DNA from: an uncultured bacterium
GTDB taxonomy: Bacteria > Patescibacteriota > Gracilibacteria > UBA1369 > PNNO01
Length of the DNA stretch: 32,000 nt
Assembly (NCBI GenBank): GCA_963704705.1
Contig: OY969931.1
Span: 1,320,001 to 1,352,000, forward strand
Direction of reading: 5' to 3'
Part shown: piece after piece, positions 8,681-31,194 of the stretch
Numbering within the stretch: position 1 is the first letter of the stretch
Layout of the letters: every line of letters starts with the position of its first letter
The notes under the pieces: generated by a model
The model's database searches: none
What the model saw: the letters and a program-made list of their open reading frames with translations, nothing else
Told to the model about the DNA's origin: nothing
Position numbers and translations under genes: made by a program

Positions 8681-8690
8681 GATATAAAAT
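8663..8690 (+). promoter_or_regulatory. sigma70-like promoter TTGACT-16-TAAAAT
   Basis: TTGACT at 8663-8668 and TAAAAT at 8685-8690, inside the last codons of rdgB and facing the ORF-free GC-enriched segment. Confidence 0.45.
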
Positions 8691-8696
8691 CTCGGC

Positions 8697-8987
8697 GAGC
8701 TTGTGTTGGTTAAGGTGGTTCAAAACACCAAGGTTTTCTTTCGCGGGAAAGCTAAAGGTGTGTCCCCCCGTTTGAACCTTGATCAGCGCAAGCTCCTTAT
8801 GGGAGAGAAAGGCAGCCGGTTTGCGTTTTGGAACGCTTCCTACCTGCCCTTACTCTCCCCCTAAAAACAACCTGCTGTTGAGACCTTAACTGTGTACGCA
8901 GCGGTTCAAATATCGAGAGGCAACTTGATAAGAGCTCGGCTCGGATCCTCAAGATCCACGCTCATTATCACTTGCCTCTCCTTTTTC
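8697..8987 (+). ncRNA. candidate structured RNA A (~290 nt, unclassified)
   Basis: No ORF of 60 aa or more; GC-enriched relative to the backbone. Nested and long-range complements: gagcttg 8697-8703 with caagctc 8789-8795; ggttaaggt 8708-8716 with accttaact 8883-8891; ggttcaaaacacc 8717-8729 with ggtgt 8757-8761 plus tttgaacc 8771-8778; gggagagaaaggcag 8801-8815 with ctgcccttactctccc 8844-8859. It ends in a long terminator hairpin. Confidence 0.4.
8915..8986 (+). terminator. long intrinsic terminator hairpin plus U-tract
   Basis: gagaggcaa 8915-8923 pairs with ttgcctctc 8972-8980. The stem continues inward (gagc/gctc, ggatc/gatcc) and is followed by cTTTTTc at 8981-8987. Confidence 0.6.
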
Positions 8988-9021
8988 AGTTACTTAGTAA
9001 CCCCCTACTTACTAAGTAACT
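8988..9021. repeat. palindromic repeat element (13-bp arms, 8-nt C-rich loop)
   Basis: agttacttagtaa / ccccctac / ttactaagtaact. It has the same TTACTTAGTAA core as the elements at 27403-28004, 29484-29535 and 31161-31194. Confidence 0.85.
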
Positions 9022-9023
9022 AG

Positions 9024-9051
9024 TTGACAAACCTCCGCTTACGTATATAAT
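9024..9051 (+). promoter_or_regulatory. near-consensus promoter TTGACA-16-TATAAT
   Basis: TTGACA at 9024-9029 and TATAAT at 9046-9051. There is no downstream plus-strand ORF. Confidence 0.6.
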
Positions 9052-9057
9052 AACTTC

Positions 9058-9375
9058 CCATTGAGAGAAACTGGTCATGTTGACCTCCTTTAACAGGGTG
9101 TGGCAAATATAATTTTTATTATTATTTGGTTCTCTCGATGGGTTAAAACAAGACACTTTGGCGCTCAGCGTTTAGAGCTTAAGCAGCCAAAGTTAAAAGT
9201 TATGGGAAAGCAGGGAGGGACAGGTTGACCTTACCTCCCCGGGCATGTCTCGCGAAGGTCCCGCCTCCCTTGCTTTCCCGCCTCATCGGAGGAGTTCAGA
9301 ATTAAGCCAAGAAATCGTTCCCTGGAAAGGAATGATGGCTGTCTGGATCAGTAACGTGGTGCTCTACCATGTGAA
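9058..9375 (+). ncRNA. candidate structured RNA B (unclassified; 3' end undefined)
   Basis: cccattgagagaa 9056-9068 pairs with ttctctcgatggg about 9130-9142. actttggc pairs with gccaaagt around 9156-9194. gggaaagcagggaggg pairs with ccctcccttgctttccc (about 9203-9279), with an internal competing cctcccc. No ORF of 60 aa or more and no clear terminator. Confidence 0.3.
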
Positions 9376-9378
9376 CAT

Positions 9379-15774: not shown

Positions 15775-15805
15775 CTTACCGAGTAAGGTGGTCTTACCGA
15801 GTAAG
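15775..15805. repeat. 2 direct copies (18-bp period) of the palindrome CTTACCGAGTAAG
   Basis: cttaccgagtaag-gtggt-cttaccgagtaag, directly upstream of a -35 hexamer. Confidence 0.85.
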
Positions 15806-20751: not shown

Positions 20752-20800
20752 TTTGCTTGGCAAGGCGGGCTTGCCAGGCAAAGGCCCCTTGCTTAGCAAG
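20752..20800. repeat. 3 direct copies (18-bp period) of the G/C-variant palindrome YTTGC-N3-GCAAG
   Basis: tttgcttggcaag-gcggg-cttgccaggcaaag-gccc-cttgcttagcaag, in the divergent region between pheS and the GC-rich small gene. Confidence 0.8.
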
Positions 20801-27402: not shown

Positions 27403-27472
27403 TTACTTAGTATGTGGGGGGTTACTTAGTATGTGGGGGGTTACTTAGTATGTGGGGGGTTACTTAGTATGG
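27403..27472. repeat. tandem array, 3.7 copies of the 19-bp unit ttacttagtatgtgggggg
   Basis: Exact units lie at 27403-27421, 27422-27440 and 27441-27459, with a partial unit at 27460-27472. The array starts 7 nt after the stop of the 881-aa gene. Confidence 0.95.
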
Positions 27473-27527
27473 AAATATTTTAAAAAAATTTTAGAATTTT
27501 TTAATAATTGAGGATTATTATTGGTGC

Positions 27528-27950
27528 ATGAGAATTCCACCAATTTTAAAGAACATGGCCTATCACATTTATGATCGTGGCATTGCAAAAAGAGTAATTT
27601 TTAAAATGCCTACAGATTATTTCTTTTTTATGTTAAAAATTGAAAAATATAAATTGAAATATAATATCGATATAACCAAATATTGTTTAATGCCTAACCA
27701 TTTTCATTTTCTAATAAATGCAGGGTCAAAACCAAAAAAAATCTCAACATTTATGAAGTGCATAAAAACTTCATATGCTTATTTTTTTAACAAAAAATAC
27801 AAACAATCTGGGCATGTATTCCAAGGCACCTTCCATGCCAATCCAATAGTTTCAGTTAAACAAATGCATGATACAATCGAATATATTAAAAACAACCCAG
27901 TTAAAAAAGGCTTAATTGATAAAGCTGAAGATTGGCCATACTCAGGATAA
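27528..27950 (+). CDS. IS200/IS605-family HUH (Y1) transposase, REP-associated tyrosine transposase (RAYT)-like
   Basis: The N-terminus is YHIYDRG. The HUH motif is MPNHFHFLI. The catalytic-Tyr helix and tail, YIKNNPVKKGLIDKAEDWPYSG, match my recollection of E. coli RayT (YIYINPVKHGWV....DWPFS). Confidence 0.85.
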   Translation: MRIPPILKNMAYHIYDRGIAKRVIFKMPTDYFFFMLKIEKYKLKYNIDITKYCLMPNHFHFLINAGSKPKKISTFMKCIKTSYAYFFNKKYKQSGHVFQGTFHANPIVSVKQMHDTIEYIKNNPVKKGLIDKAEDWPYSG

Positions 27951-27973
27951 TTGTTTTTCTTGATAGATCATAG

Positions 27974-28004
27974 TTACTAAGTAACCTACCCCTTACTAAG
28001 TAAC
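27974..28004. repeat. 2 direct copies (19-bp period) of TTACTAAGTAAC
   Basis: ttactaagtaac (27974-27985), ctacccc, ttactaagtaac (27993-28004). Confidence 0.9.
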
Positions 28005-28006
28005 TC

Positions 28007-29483: not shown

Positions 29484-29535
29484 ATATACTAAGTAAGTAC
29501 CCCCTTACTTAGTATATACCCAGCTACTAAGTAAC
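29484..29535. repeat. 34-bp palindromic element plus an extra half-site
   Basis: atatactaagtaa / gtaccccc / ttacttagtatat (29484-29517, perfect 13-bp arms), then ctactaagtaac at 29524-29535, ending 1 nt before ATG 29537. Confidence 0.9.
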
Positions 29536-29536
29536 T

Positions 29537-31156
29537 ATGCAACTAATTTACAAACACAAATACTGGCGTTTGCTTGAGATGGTTCCAGGGCTTCTTGCCT
29601 GGGGGGCGCTGCTTATACCTGTTGTTGTGGCGATTTATCACCCAATTTTAATTGCTGTTTTGGCTATTGTTTATGCGTTGCTTTGGCTTTTCAGATCAAT
29701 TCGATTGAGCATAAATTTGTATAGGGGTTATTGGAGAACTCAGGATGCAATGAAGGTGAACTGGAATTTTCTTCTCGATCTGGTTGAACATCCAGGAAAA
29801 ATCGACCAGGCGGTTAGTGAAACTGACCTTAGCAAGCCTCTTTTAAGGCCACAAAAAATCTTCAATCTTGAACTTAAAAATCTAAAAAACAGATTAACGT
29901 GGCTAAATCAAAATGACCAAGAGCTTAAGCCCTCACAGATTCACCATGCGATTTTAATAGTGACTTATAAAGAGTCGTATGAGCTGGTGAGGGAATCCGT
30001 TAAGTCATATGCGGAAAGTTTTTATCCTTATAAAAAAATGGTTTTGGTACTTGGAGGAGAGGAAGGCGACAAAGAAAATTTCGCGCAAATCTCAGAAAAA
30101 ATCGAGAAAGAATTCGGAGACAAATTCAGCGCAATAATTAAGACGGTACATCCAAAAGGCATGCCAGGAGAAATCCCTGGCAAAAGCGCAAATGCAACAT
30201 TTGCCGGTAAGGAATTAAAGCGATATCTCGACCACCATCACATCCCTTACGAGCATGTTATTTTATCAAATTTTGATGCTGACACTGTTGCGCATCCTGC
30301 TTATTTTAGTGAGCTTACTTTTAAATATTTGGTTACTAAAAATCGAACACAAAAAGCGTATCAGCCAACACACATGTTTCATAATAATATTTGGGATGTG
30401 CCTGTGATGATTCGTATGGTTGCTCTTTCTTGCACTTTCTGGCGCATGTCAGAGGCACTTGATAAACATAAATATAAAAGTTTTTCTTCGCGTTCAATGG
30501 GCTTTCAAACAGTTATTGATACAAATTATTGGGATCCTTCTATTATTCCTGAGGACTCGCGTCAGTTCTGGACAGCATTTTTGAAATACAACGGAAAGCA
30601 TACTGTTAGCTGGATTTATACGCCTGTTTATATGGATGCTGTTTTGTCAGATAGTTATCTTGAGACTTTTAAAAGTCAGTATGTGCAATTAAGGCGCTGG
30701 GCATGGGGTGTTATGGATTTCCCGTTCATGGCGATCAACTTGGCAAGACATCCAAAAATAAAACTCAGCGAAAAAATATATAGAATTTTTTACTTTTTAG
30801 AGAATGCGTTTTTCTGGGCAACCGGTCCTTTGATTATTATGTTCGCGGGTTGGCTTCCTTCTATGATGAACGCTGATTTCCGTAATTCGGTTCTTGCATA
30901 TAATTTACCAAATATAACCAGCCAGATTTTAACTGTTGCCGGAATAGGTATAATCATGTGCGGAATTATAAGTCTTGTGATCGTACCCCGTCAGGTAAAA
31001 CGCAGTCCGTGGGTACGAATTTCTCTATTTTTCCAGTGGCTTCTGGTGCCGATAACTTCAATTTTCCTTAGTGCGATTCCTGCTCTCGACGCTCAAACCC
31101 GCCTTCTTTTCGGCAAGCACCTCGAATACAAGGTTACGAAAAAAGCGAGGAAGTAA
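29537..31156 (+). CDS. integral-membrane family 2 glycosyltransferase, processive synthase type (QxxRW)
   Basis: It has N- and C-terminal TM helices. The GT-A core carries ILIVTYKES, FDAD (DxD), EDSRQFW and QLRRWAWG motifs. Confidence 0.8.
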   Translation: MQLIYKHKYWRLLEMVPGLLAWGALLIPVVVAIYHPILIAVLAIVYALLWLFRSIRLSINLYRGYWRTQDAMKVNWNFLLDLVEHPGKIDQAVSETDLSKPLLRPQKIFNLELKNLKNRLTWLNQNDQELKPSQIHHAILIVTYKESYELVRESVKSYAESFYPYKKMVLVLGGEEGDKENFAQISEKIEKEFGDKFSAIIKTVHPKGMPGEIPGKSANATFAGKELKRYLDHHHIPYEHVILSNFDADTVAHPAYFSELTFKYLVTKNRTQKAYQPTHMFHNNIWDVPVMIRMVALSCTFWRMSEALDKHKYKSFSSRSMGFQTVIDTNYWDPSIIPEDSRQFWTAFLKYNGKHTVSWIYTPVYMDAVLSDSYLETFKSQYVQLRRWAWGVMDFPFMAINLARHPKIKLSEKIYRIFYFLENAFFWATGPLIIMFAGWLPSMMNADFRNSVLAYNLPNITSQILTVAGIGIIMCGIISLVIVPRQVKRSPWVRISLFFQWLLVPITSIFLSAIPALDAQTRLLFGKHLEYKVTKKARK

Positions 31157-31160
31157 TTTT

Positions 31161-31194
31161 ATATACTAAGTAACCCCCACCTTACTTAGTATAT
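31161..31194. repeat. 34-bp palindromic element with arms identical to 29484-29517
   Basis: atatactaagtaa / cccccacc / ttacttagtatat, lying between convergent stops and overlapping the TGA of the NMNAT gene by 1 nt. Confidence 0.9.

What the first reader, a model, noticed from the sequence alone, without database searches (positions are those of the whole stretch)
29484..31194. Identical 34-bp hairpin elements fill consecutive intergenic gaps and bracket the GT2 synthase gene
Seen in the sequence:
- atatactaagtaa-N8(C-rich)-ttacttagtatat occurs at 29484-29517 and again at 31161-31194. The 13-bp arms are perfect and differ only in the loop (gtaccccc versus cccccacc).
- A related element, agttacttagtaa-ccccctac-ttactaagtaact, lies at 8988-9021.
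- With the arrays at 27403-27472 and 27974-28004, every intergenic gap between 27.4 and 31.2 kb contains this core.
- One extra half-site ends 1 nt before the GT2 start codon, and one hairpin overlaps the NMNAT stop codon.

Possible roles, which are not mutually exclusive:
- REP/BIME-like elements mobilised by the adjacent RAYT.
- Bidirectional terminators or mRNA-stabilising hairpins.
- A DNA-uptake-sequence-like motif. DUS/USS elements also accumulate as inverted pairs in terminators, and small-genome bacteria are often competent.
Basis: partly seen in the sequence, partly recalled or inferred. Interest (0 to 1): 0.6.

Follow-up and report, generated by a model that had tools for sequence, protein, structure and literature searches.

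The report
Mini REP hairpins of a RAYT
The repeated 34-base hairpins are scattered copies of the short DNA palindrome that belongs to the neighbouring transposase-like (RAYT) gene. This is a miniature version, in an ultra-small Peregrinibacteria (candidate phyla radiation, CPR) genome, of the known REP/RAYT repeat system, and the copies also mark the ends of an inverted gene block.

Summary
Perfect 13-bp-arm hairpins lie at 29484-29517 and 31161-31194, with relatives at 8988-9021, 27403-27472 and 27972-28005.

**What the element is**
- The core is a 9-bp odd palindrome, TACTWAGTA, repeated at a 19-bp period with a C-run spacer.
- The genome (1.37 Mb) holds 14 such loci, all intergenic. Four non-flanking loci lie within 31 kb of the RAYT gene at 27528-27950, which is itself bracketed by mutually inverted copies.

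**Comparative evidence**
- The motif is missing from 40 relatives, apart from one pair.
- This genome has four RAYT paralogues, each with its own palindrome. Most of the 14 RAYT genes I inspected in sister genomes are also bracketed by their own.
- Orthologous gaps in congeners are empty or hold another variant, so the elements come and go.
- The RAYT-PGM-"GT2" block is inverted relative to the ancestral gene order, with elements at both junctions.

**Verdict**
- Best reading (0.75): REP-like doublets cognate to this RAYT.
- A DUS role is rejected.
- A terminator or mRNA-stabiliser role is untested.
- RAYT cleavage or mobilisation is inferred, not shown. The canonical GTAG foot is absent.
- This scan had already reported the RAYT and its arrays (e1-2552768), so this is a new variant of a known kind.

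The parts
27403..27472 (.). Array of four 19-bp units (TTACTTAGTA + TGTGGGGGG). It starts 7 nt after the stop of the 881-aa gene and lies upstream of the RAYT. The G-run is on the + strand, so it is inverted relative to all downstream copies. It is the left junction of the inverted block.
27528..27950 (+). RAYT-type Y1 HUH nuclease gene (140 aa). HUH motif HFH; catalytic Tyr in EYIKNNPV, which aligns with Y115 of E. coli TnpAREP.
   Evidence: PF01797 at 5e-12. NF047646 REP_Tyr_transpos scores 79.2 bits (cut-off 80) against 21.3 bits for IS200. The best PDB match is 4ER8.
27972..28005 (.). Doublet AGTTACTAAGTAA-CCTACCCC-TTACTAAGTAACT downstream of the RAYT stop, with the C-run on the + strand. 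There is a central A/A mismatch if folded.
29484..29517 (.). Hairpin 1: 13-bp perfect arms (14 bp in the minimum-energy fold), C-rich loop. It starts 3 nt after the PGM stop.
   Evidence: RNA -15.8 kcal/mol, z -3.95; DNA -9.7
29524..29535 (.). Third unit (half-site CTACTAAGTAAC), 19 bp after unit 2. It ends 1 nt before the ATG of the 539-aa gene.
31161..31194 (.). Hairpin 2: the same 13-bp arms. It fills the 37-bp gap between the convergent 539-aa gene and NMNAT, overlaps the NMNAT stop by 1 nt, and is the right junction of the inverted block.
   Evidence: (RNA -12.5 / -14.3)
8988..9021 (.). Hairpin of the AGT...ACT subtype (13-bp arms, loop CCCCCTAC), 2 nt upstream of a consensus TTGACA-17-TATAAT promoter.
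   Evidence: (-14.5 kcal/mol)
15775..15805 (.). Doublet of a sister variant (CTTACCGAGTAAG x2, 18-bp period), the type that dominates in congeneric genomes.
20753..20799 (.). Triplet of another variant (TTGCYWRGCAA x3, 18-bp period, G/C-rich spacers).

Best explanation
The hairpins are dispersed copies of a miniature REP-like element cognate to the RAYT (REP-associated tyrosine transposase, a Y1 HUH nuclease) encoded at 27528-27950.

The building block is a 9-11-bp odd palindrome (TTACT-W-AGTAA) followed by a C-run. Two adjacent blocks, 19 bp apart, fold in single-stranded DNA (and in RNA) into a 12-13-bp stem with an 8-nt C-rich loop.

Proposed mechanism, by analogy with E. coli TnpAREP and IS200/IS605 TnpA:
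- The RAYT recognises this folded single strand, for example at replication forks.
- It cuts and rejoins it. This copies doublets into nearby permissive spacers (mostly the few bases between a stop codon and the next promoter or gene) and amplifies units locally into arrays.
- Being self-complementary repeats, copies in opposite orientation also serve as recombination substrates. One such event inverted the RAYT-PGM-'GT2' block.

Shown here:
- The architecture and the strict extragenic location.
- Genome specificity.
- A one-RAYT-one-palindrome rule across paralogues and relatives.
- Insertion and variant polymorphism at orthologous sites.
- Elements at both inversion junctions.

Inferred: catalysis by the RAYT, the route of copying, and any effect on transcripts.
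For: **1. RAYT identity**
- PF01797 at 5e-12.
- NF047646 scores 79.2 bits against 21.3 for the IS200 model.
- 4ER8 TnpAREP is the only significant PDB match, with HUH and Tyr aligned.

**2. REPtron layout**
- A G-run array lies upstream of the gene and a C-run doublet downstream, so the flanks are inverted.

**3. Census**
- There are 17 exact pairs in 14 loci. The control pattern scores 0.
- 14 of 14 loci are intergenic in a genome that is 92% coding.
- 8 of 14 start 1-13 nt after a stop codon.
- Four of the 12 loci that do not flank the RAYT lie within 31 kb of it, against about 0.5 expected.

**4. Specificity**
- 39 of 40 relatives have no pair, and one congener has a single pair.

**5. Each RAYT has its own palindrome**
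- The three other RAYT paralogues in this genome each have a different palindrome beside them. One carries a 13-unit array.
- Most of the 14 RAYT genes inspected in seven sister genomes are bracketed on both sides by their own palindrome.
- Close RAYT pairs (G003_a/G004_c; R4/G001_a) share closely similar palindromes.

**6. Superfamily distribution**
- The generalised pair TACYNRGTA-N8-12-TACYNRGTA occurs in 10 of 13 genomes of the family, with the reversed control at 0.
- It is rare elsewhere in the order.
- All 8 RAYT-positive genomes of the family have pairs.

**7. Polymorphism at orthologous sites**
- The PGM|'GT2' gap is absent in G005 and G013. It holds other sequences in G004, G007 and G009.
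- Own loci 508998, 135460 and 1317069 are empty in congeners.
- A metagenome relative (77% nt identity) has this same hairpin where the own genome has a mixed three-variant array.

**8. Copy relationships**
- The unconstrained spacer is identical between the array and locus 508998 (28 of 28 nt).
- It is near-identical between 29487 and 247667.

**9. Outer-stem complementarity**
- Outer stem positions pair in most isolated doublets, in two compensating subtypes: ATA...TAT and AGT...ACT.

**10. Inversion**
- The ancestral order nadE>NMNAT>[RAYT>]PGM>GT2><p881 is seen in G001, G003, G004, G005, G008, G009 and G013.
- The own genome and G007 have the block flipped, with elements at both junctions.
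Against: - No biochemical or population-level evidence of movement. The only other assembly of this stretch (Logan contig L035) is 100% identical.
- The canonical 5' GTAG/CGTC foot of REPs is absent.
- Copy number is tiny: 14 loci, against hundreds in classical systems.
- The central base of the arms pairs in only 9 of 18 pairs, which is the chance level. Selection for a perfect hairpin is therefore not evident, and a double-stranded binding-site reading of the palindrome is not excluded.
- Genome G002 (99% complete, 100 contigs) has 13 pairs but no detectable RAYT.
- The RAYT falls 0.8 bits short of NCBIfam's cut-off.
- The RAYT tree is unresolved, so co-divergence is shown only for two close pairs.
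- The proximity statistic uses a window chosen after the fact.
- Gene boundaries for the genome-wide positions come from my own crude ORF caller.
Confidence: 0.75

Rival explanations
1. The hairpins are primarily RNA-level signals, either bidirectional terminators or 3'-end stabilisers. Selection keeps them at gene ends, and they have no dependence on the RAYT.
For: - 8 of 14 loci begin 1-13 nt after a stop codon, and one fills a convergent gap.
- The C-run is on the mRNA-sense strand in about 9 of 10 loci that follow a stop codon.
- RNA folds are stable: -12.5 to -15.8 kcal/mol, z -3 to -5.6.
- E. coli REPs are known to stabilise upstream mRNA (own knowledge; reviewed in PMC8266576).
Against: - There is no U-tract, only one G-C pair in the 9-bp core, and the terminator scan did not call them.
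- Four loci lie in divergent promoter regions.
- Hairpin 1 lies inside an operon that is gap-less in outgroups.
- At 325.5 kb the elements sit next to a separate, conserved GC-stem terminator-like hairpin.
- The sequence is genome-specific, and orthologous gaps in congeners are empty. That is not expected of conserved terminators.
- This reading does not explain the one-RAYT-one-palindrome rule.
Confidence: 0.1
2. The palindromic units are double-stranded binding sites for a dimeric DNA-binding protein (a regulator or a nucleoid or partition factor), phased every 18-19 bp. The hairpin potential is a by-product.
For: - The unit itself is an odd palindrome, as dimer operators are.
- The central base is free (paired in 9 of 18 pairs).
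- The 18-19-bp phasing is strict across variants.
- Two copies sit directly upstream of -35 boxes.
Against: - The sequence changes between congeneric species and between loci of one genome, which would need a co-varying binding protein. The only co-varying neighbour seen is the RAYT.
- Outer-flank complementarity exists between the two units of a doublet but not within a unit.
- Loci are gained and lost at orthologous sites.
- No candidate regulator gene is linked.
Confidence: 0.07
3. The RAYT gene with its flanking palindromes is an ordinary, active IS200/IS605-type insertion sequence. The scattered hairpins are its solo ends or footprints.
For: - Y1_Tnp domain.
- Inverted palindromes on both sides of the gene.
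- The unit starts with TTAC, the IS608 target tetranucleotide (own knowledge).
Against: - The four copies in the genome are only 42-47% identical to the window's RAYT and each is unique.
- The gene keeps its position upstream of PGM in two other genera.
- The IS200 model scores 21 bits against 79 for the REP-transposase model.
- No tnpB is present.
- Doublets are far more numerous than genes.
Confidence: 0.05
4. The core is a DNA-uptake sequence (DUS/USS-like) that accumulates as inverted pairs.
Against: - Only 39 copies of the 9-mer in 1.37 Mb, against about 31 expected from composition.
- Only 8 copies lie outside the clusters and none of the paired loci is in coding sequence.
- Uptake sequences occur about once per kb, including in genes (own knowledge).
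- The motif is absent from congeners.
Confidence: 0.01

Closest known systems
REPtrons: TnpAREP/RAYT with REP/BIME sequences (E. coli yafM/rayT, PDB 4ER8; Ton-Hoang 2012 PMC3333891; Corneloup 2021 PMC8266576)
   Same: - A small, single-copy-per-type Y1 HUH gene bracketed by inverted palindromes.
- The same palindromes scattered extragenically, often at gene ends and in tandem.
- Protein and palindrome differ together between lineages.
- The gene can be lost while its repeats remain. Compare G007 and G002 with the E. coli B2 strains.
   Different: - The unit is only 9-11 bp and is itself a palindrome.
- There is a fixed 18-19-bp period with a C/G-run spacer.
- There is no GTAG/CGTC foot.
- About 14 loci instead of hundreds.
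- Four paralogous RAYTs with four palindromes in a 1.37-Mb genome.
- Units of different variants are mixed within one array.
REPIN-RAYT systems of Pseudomonas (Bertels & Rainey 2011, PMC3116915)
   Same: The mobile unit appears to be a doublet of inverted repeats that folds into one hairpin. RAYTs are vertically inherited.
   Different: REPINs are roughly 70-110 nt, with two separate REP hairpins and populations of hundreds. Here the whole doublet is 34 nt.
TnpA_Y1 subclass 2.6 / RAYT group 5 with 'atypical secondary structures' (Quentin 2018, PMC6006769)
   Same: RAYT genes are flanked by non-canonical structures that lack the GTAG foot, with copies elsewhere in the genome.
   Different: That subclass is mostly in Bacteroidetes. 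I did not test whether these CPR proteins belong to it. The paper contains none of the CPR terms I searched for.
IS200/IS605 insertion sequences (IS608, ISDra2)
   Same: Y1 HUH enzyme; subterminal hairpins recognised as single strands.
   Different: Those are multi-copy mobile genes, often with tnpB. Here the genes are unique, divergent and kept in the same position relative to neighbouring genes.

Membership tests
REP/RAYT system (REPtron) | Y1 HUH nuclease of the TnpAREP/RAYT clade, rather than IS200/IS605 TnpA | tested here: met
   NF047646 scores 79.2 bits (0.8 below the cut-off) against 21.3 for IS200. 4ER8 is the top PDB match, with HUH and Y115 aligned.
REP/RAYT system (REPtron) | RAYT gene bracketed by its palindromes in inverted orientation | tested here: met
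   A G-run array lies upstream at 27403-27472 and a C-run doublet downstream at 27972-28005. The same layout holds for most of the 14 RAYT genes inspected in sister genomes.
REP/RAYT system (REPtron) | The same palindrome dispersed in extragenic positions genome-wide | tested here: met
   14 loci, all intergenic. The copy number is very low for the family.
REP/RAYT system (REPtron) | RAYT gene single-copy, not itself mobile, vertically inherited | tested here: inconclusive
   Four paralogues, each unique and 42-47% identical to the window's RAYT. The position upstream of PGM is shared with G008 and G009. The tree does not resolve orthology.
REP/RAYT system (REPtron) | REP of 20-50 nt preceded by a conserved GTAG (or CGTC) tetranucleotide | tested here: not met
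   There is no GTAG or CGTC at the foot of any of the 18 pairs. The units end in GTAA/GTAT instead. The definition is taken from PMC8266576.
REP/RAYT system (REPtron) | RAYT binds, cleaves and joins the single-stranded REP | not testable with these tools
   Needs purified protein and oligonucleotide substrates.
REPIN | Two inverted REPs forming one long hairpin that replicates as a unit | tested here: inconclusive
   Isolated doublets have 12-13-bp arms with outer-flank complementarity. The units are self-palindromic, the centre pairs in only 9 of 18, and the total size is 34 nt.
IS200/IS605 insertion sequence | Several near-identical copies of gene plus ends | tested here: not met
Intrinsic (Rho-independent) terminator | G+C-rich stem followed by a U-tract | tested here: not met
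   The scan did not call either hairpin. The stems are AT-rich and no T-run follows.
DNA uptake sequence (DUS/USS) | Hundreds to thousands of copies, roughly one per kb, inside genes as well | tested here: not met
   39 copies of the 9-mer and 14 clustered loci, none in coding sequence.

The most novel reading that the evidence does not exclude
The doublets are not just passive repeats. They are live recombination substrates of a modular system.
- Several RAYT paralogues each add 18-19-bp units of their own variant to shared arrays, which is a phased, unit-wise mode of growth not described for REP/BIME.
- Oppositely oriented copies repeatedly flip the RAYT-PGM-'GT2' segment. That segment has been inverted independently in two lineages, with elements at both junctions.
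Probability: 0.15. Interest if true: 0.65.

Novelty: new variant of a known kind. Interest (0 to 1): 0.45.

Why it matters
REP/RAYT systems are known mostly from Proteobacteria, where hundreds of 20-50-nt REPs make it hard to trace individual events.

Here the system is reduced to a 140-aa enzyme, a 34-nt doublet and 14 loci in a closed 1.37-Mb CPR genome. Four paralogous enzyme/palindrome pairs sit side by side, and sister genomes carry other variants.

This gives a small natural test set for how a Y1 HUH nuclease reads its hairpin. It also offers countable gains and losses and an inversion whose junctions carry the elements.

The elements also explain why assemblies of these genomes break at such loci, and why consecutive gaps in a very compact genome are filled. 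I found no paper linking RAYTs to CPR bacteria in the library searched.

Tried and rejected
- **Strain-level polymorphism.** The RAYT protein is not on record. The NMNAT look-up returned one Logan contig that is 100% identical from 27442 onward and breaks inside the array, so it is uninformative.
- **Metagenome pattern scan.** It gave 76 hits. Only one, L039, is a relative with this element. About 45 are an unrelated conserved hairpin in contigs of 60-70% GC. None carries a RAYT homologue.
- **Replication-strand bias.** Cumulative GC skew is too noisy to place the origin and terminus.
- **Genome-contig search with the RAYT.** It returned only distant homologues in other phyla.
- **RAYT tree.** It is largely unresolved and the window's RAYT is a long branch, so no formal co-phylogeny was attempted.
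- **Rfam and tRNA scans.** Neither gave anything around the hairpin at 8988.
- **attC/integron reading.** Considered and dropped. None of the loci lies in the integron array that this scan reported about 117-137 kb upstream of the window, and the units lack the attC core.
- **G-quadruplex in the array.** Dropped, because there are only three G-runs.
Full report
**1. The observation**

- Two hairpins with identical perfect 13-bp arms and different C-rich 8-nt loops lie at 29484-29517 and 31161-31194.
- A third hairpin, with AGT...ACT outer flanks, lies at 8988-9021.
- A 4 x 19-bp array lies at 27403-27472 and a doublet at 27972-28005.
- A further unit at 29524-29535 ends one base before the ATG at 29537.
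- Base 31194 is shared with the NMNAT stop codon.

The 10-mer TTACTWAGTA occurs 17 times in the window, against 0.11 expected; no shuffle reached 17.

One refinement matters. The arm is itself an odd palindrome (TACT-W-AGTA). 'Direct' and 'inverted' arrangements therefore differ only at the central base and in the flanks. All copies share a 19-bp period with a spacer that holds a run of C (or G on the other strand).

**2. Gene context**
- ORF 27528-27950 is a Y1 HUH nuclease: PF01797 at 5e-12.
- It fits NCBIfam's REP-associated tyrosine transposase model (79.2 bits, cut-off 80) far better than the IS200 model (21.3 bits).
- Its only significant PDB relative is E. coli TnpAREP, 4ER8, with the HUH motif and the catalytic tyrosine aligned.
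- The neighbours are a phosphoglucomutase/phosphomannomutase, an NMN adenylyltransferase, and a 539-aa membrane protein.
- The 539-aa protein has no Pfam, NCBIfam or PDB match. It does carry DAD, ED and QLRRW motifs in the order typical of processive GT2 enzymes, so the 'GT2' label is plausible but unverified.

**3. Genome-wide census**

The window is G000:C1:1320001-1352000 of a closed genome of 1,374,545 bp and 35.5% GC. Earlier notes of this scan call it Peregrinibacteria/CPR.
- The paired arrangement occurs 17 times in 14 loci, and the reversed control pattern occurs 0 times.
- All 14 loci are intergenic, although my ORF map puts 92% of the genome in coding sequence.
- Eight loci begin 1-13 nt after a stop codon. 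Four lie next to gene starts in divergent regions.
- Six of the 14 lie within 31 kb of the RAYT. Leaving out the two that bracket the gene, that is 4 of 12 against about 0.5 expected. The binomial P is about 0.002, but I chose the distance after seeing the data.
- The bare 9-mer is not enriched outside these clusters: 8 isolated copies.

This rules out a DUS-like role.

**4. Folding**
- As RNA the hairpins reach -12.5 to -15.8 kcal/mol, with z from -3.0 to -5.6.
- As DNA they reach -8.1 to -10.5 kcal/mol.
- The array and the doublet at 27972 fold weakly, because the central bases clash.
- Across all 18 pairs the centre is complementary in 9, which is the chance level.
- The three positions outside the core are complementary in most isolated doublets. 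They come in two compensating subtypes, ATA...TAT and AGT...ACT.
- The inner flanks do not extend the unit's own palindrome, so the doublet rather than the single unit behaves as the folded element.
- No T-tract follows either hairpin, and the terminator scan did not call them.

**5. One RAYT, one palindrome**

The genome has four Y1 genes, and each has its own palindrome beside it.
- The RAYT at 85.5 kb has ATCACYNAGTGAT, including a 13-unit array with an 18-bp period.
- The RAYT at 35 kb has AGACCWGGTCT. Three further dispersed loci carry this palindrome.
- The RAYT at 1267 kb has a longer hairpin.
- All four share a conserved A/T-rich sequence just upstream of the start codon.

Fourteen further RAYT genes in seven sister genomes show the same layout. 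Most have lineage-specific short palindromes on both sides, usually built on a TAC-YNR-GTA core.

The two well-supported close pairs in the tree (G003_a/G004_c and R4/G001_a) have closely similar palindromes. The rest of the tree is unresolved, and the window's RAYT is a long branch, 40-50% identical to everything else.

**6. Distribution**
- The exact motif pair is found in this genome only, apart from a single pair in one congener, among 41 genomes searched.
- The generalised pair TACYNRGTA-N8-12-TACYNRGTA is found in 10 of 13 genomes of the family, with the control at 0.
- Across 81 genomes of the order it is almost confined to this family and one other.
- All eight RAYT-positive genomes of the family have pairs.
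- Of the five RAYT-negative genomes, three have none, one has two, and G002 has 13.
- G002 is either a case of repeats outliving their enzyme, as in E. coli B2 strains (PMC3333891), or an assembly gap. It has 100 contigs, and arrays break assemblies, as contig L035 shows.

**7. Orthologous sites**

*The PGM|'GT2' gap (56 bp here)*
- It does not exist in G005 (the genes overlap) or in G013 (2 nt).
- It holds different palindromes in G004, G007 and G009.

*The gap after the 539-aa gene*
- It holds a doublet of another variant in the closest relative, G001.

*Three other loci of this genome*
- 508998 is empty in G001 and G002, where the stop codon runs almost straight into a conserved TTGACA promoter.
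- 135460 is empty in G002, G004 and G007.
- 1317069 is empty in G001 and holds a unit of another variant in G002.

*A metagenome relative*
- Contig L039 has 77% nt identity to 323.8-326.3 kb of this genome. It carries this very hairpin at a site where the own genome has three units of three different variants in 18-bp phase.

*Spacers*
- Spacers, which palindromy does not constrain, are identical between the array and locus 508998 (28 of 28 nt). They are nearly identical between 29487 and 247667. This points to copying rather than convergence.

So the elements are gained, lost and replaced.

**8. An inversion bounded by the elements**

In G001, G003, G004, G005, G008, G009 and the outgroup G013, the 881-aa gene's homologue lies convergent after the 539-aa gene. 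Where the upstream flank was sequenced (G004, G005, G008, G009), the full order nadE > NMNAT > [RAYT >] PGM > 539-aa gene > < 881-aa gene is confirmed.

In this genome and in G007 the order is 881-aa gene > [RAYT >] PGM > 539-aa gene > < NMNAT < nadE.

This is a simple in-place inversion of the block.
- Here its two junctions are the G-run array (27403-27472) and hairpin 2 (31161-31194). These are mutually inverted copies, as inversion by recombination between them requires.
- G007 has doublets or units of its own variant at both junctions.
- G009, in the ancestral order, already has arrays at both future breakpoints.
- The congeners of both genomes keep the ancestral order, so the flip seems to have happened twice.

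The sample is small. Whether RecA or the RAYT made the exchange is unknown.

**9. Interpretation**

These are REP-like elements cognate to the adjacent RAYT.

They differ from textbook REPs as defined in PMC8266576:
- a much smaller, self-palindromic unit;
- strict 18-19-bp phasing with a C/G-run;
- no GTAG foot;
- very low copy number;
- several RAYT/palindrome pairs in one small genome.

The atypical, GTAG-less structures of TnpA_Y1 subclass 2.6 (PMC6006769) are the nearest published precedent. That paper contains none of the CPR terms I searched for, and no paper in the library linked RAYTs with CPR bacteria.

An added RNA-level role is possible. In E. coli, REPs close to stop codons and inside operons affect mRNA stability and translation (own knowledge). 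Here it remains untested.

**10. Standing within this scan**

The RAYT and its flanking arrays in this same genome were already followed up (e1-2552768), with the same verdict. Similar systems were reported in other Peregrinibacteria genomes (e1-2701814, e1-3405586).

This report adds:
- the genome-wide census of the dispersed copies;
- the insertion polymorphism at five orthologous sites;
- the spacer identities between distant loci;
- the mixed-variant arrays;
- the inversion.

Noticed in passing
window 8681-9378: A roughly 700-nt stretch without a long ORF. A consensus TTGACA-17-TATAAT promoter at 9024-9052 sits directly after the hairpin at 8988-9021. There was no Rfam or tRNA/tmRNA hit, so this may be an undescribed non-coding RNA.
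   Followed up: partly
G000:C1:85935-86170 (outside the window): A 13-unit tandem array (18-bp period, ATCACCGAGTGAT plus a 5-nt spacer) lies directly downstream of another RAYT paralogue. Single units of the same type occur at 229.6, 300.0 and 412.4 kb.
   Followed up: partly
G000:C1:325520-325575 (outside the window): A three-unit array mixes three different palindrome variants (ATCACCTAGTGAT, ATTACTCGGTAAT, ATTACTAAGTAAT) in 18-bp phase, next to a conserved GC-stem terminator-like hairpin. The orthologous site in metagenome contig L039 has a single doublet of the window's type.
   Followed up: partly
upstream of all four RAYT genes (window 27473-27500; L001, L003, L004): A conserved A/T-rich sequence (approximately AAAATTTTAGAAWWTTTTTAG) precedes every RAYT paralogue here and many in sister genomes. 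It may be a shared promoter or operator.
   Followed up: no
window 29537-31156: A 539-aa membrane protein is conserved across the family (74-92% identity) and in two other families of the order (57-58%). It has no Pfam, NCBIfam or PDB sequence match, yet carries DAD, ED and QLRRW motifs like processive GT2 synthases.
   Followed up: partly
loci L037-L112 (metagenome contigs): About 45 contigs of 60-70% GC carry a conserved AT-rich hairpin, AAGCTTACTAAGTAA-(8 nt, often TCCTAGGA)-TTACTTAGTAAGCTT. It shares the window's arm sequence by coincidence and is unrelated to this genome. Its function is unknown.
   Followed up: no
G008:C109:5536-6862 (L116): A second, degenerate RAYT-like frame lies between the C-terminus of an 881-aa-gene homologue and fragments of a paralogue of the 539-aa gene. 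This suggests the same neighbourhood was duplicated or rearranged in that genome.
   Followed up: no
G000:C1:135155-135457 (outside the window): A roughly 390-bp segment carrying a 100-aa ORF plus a three-unit element is present here. It is absent from the orthologous 70-80-bp gap of G002 and G004. G001 and G003 have larger, different inserts at the same spot, so this is a variable insertion hot spot.
   Followed up: partly
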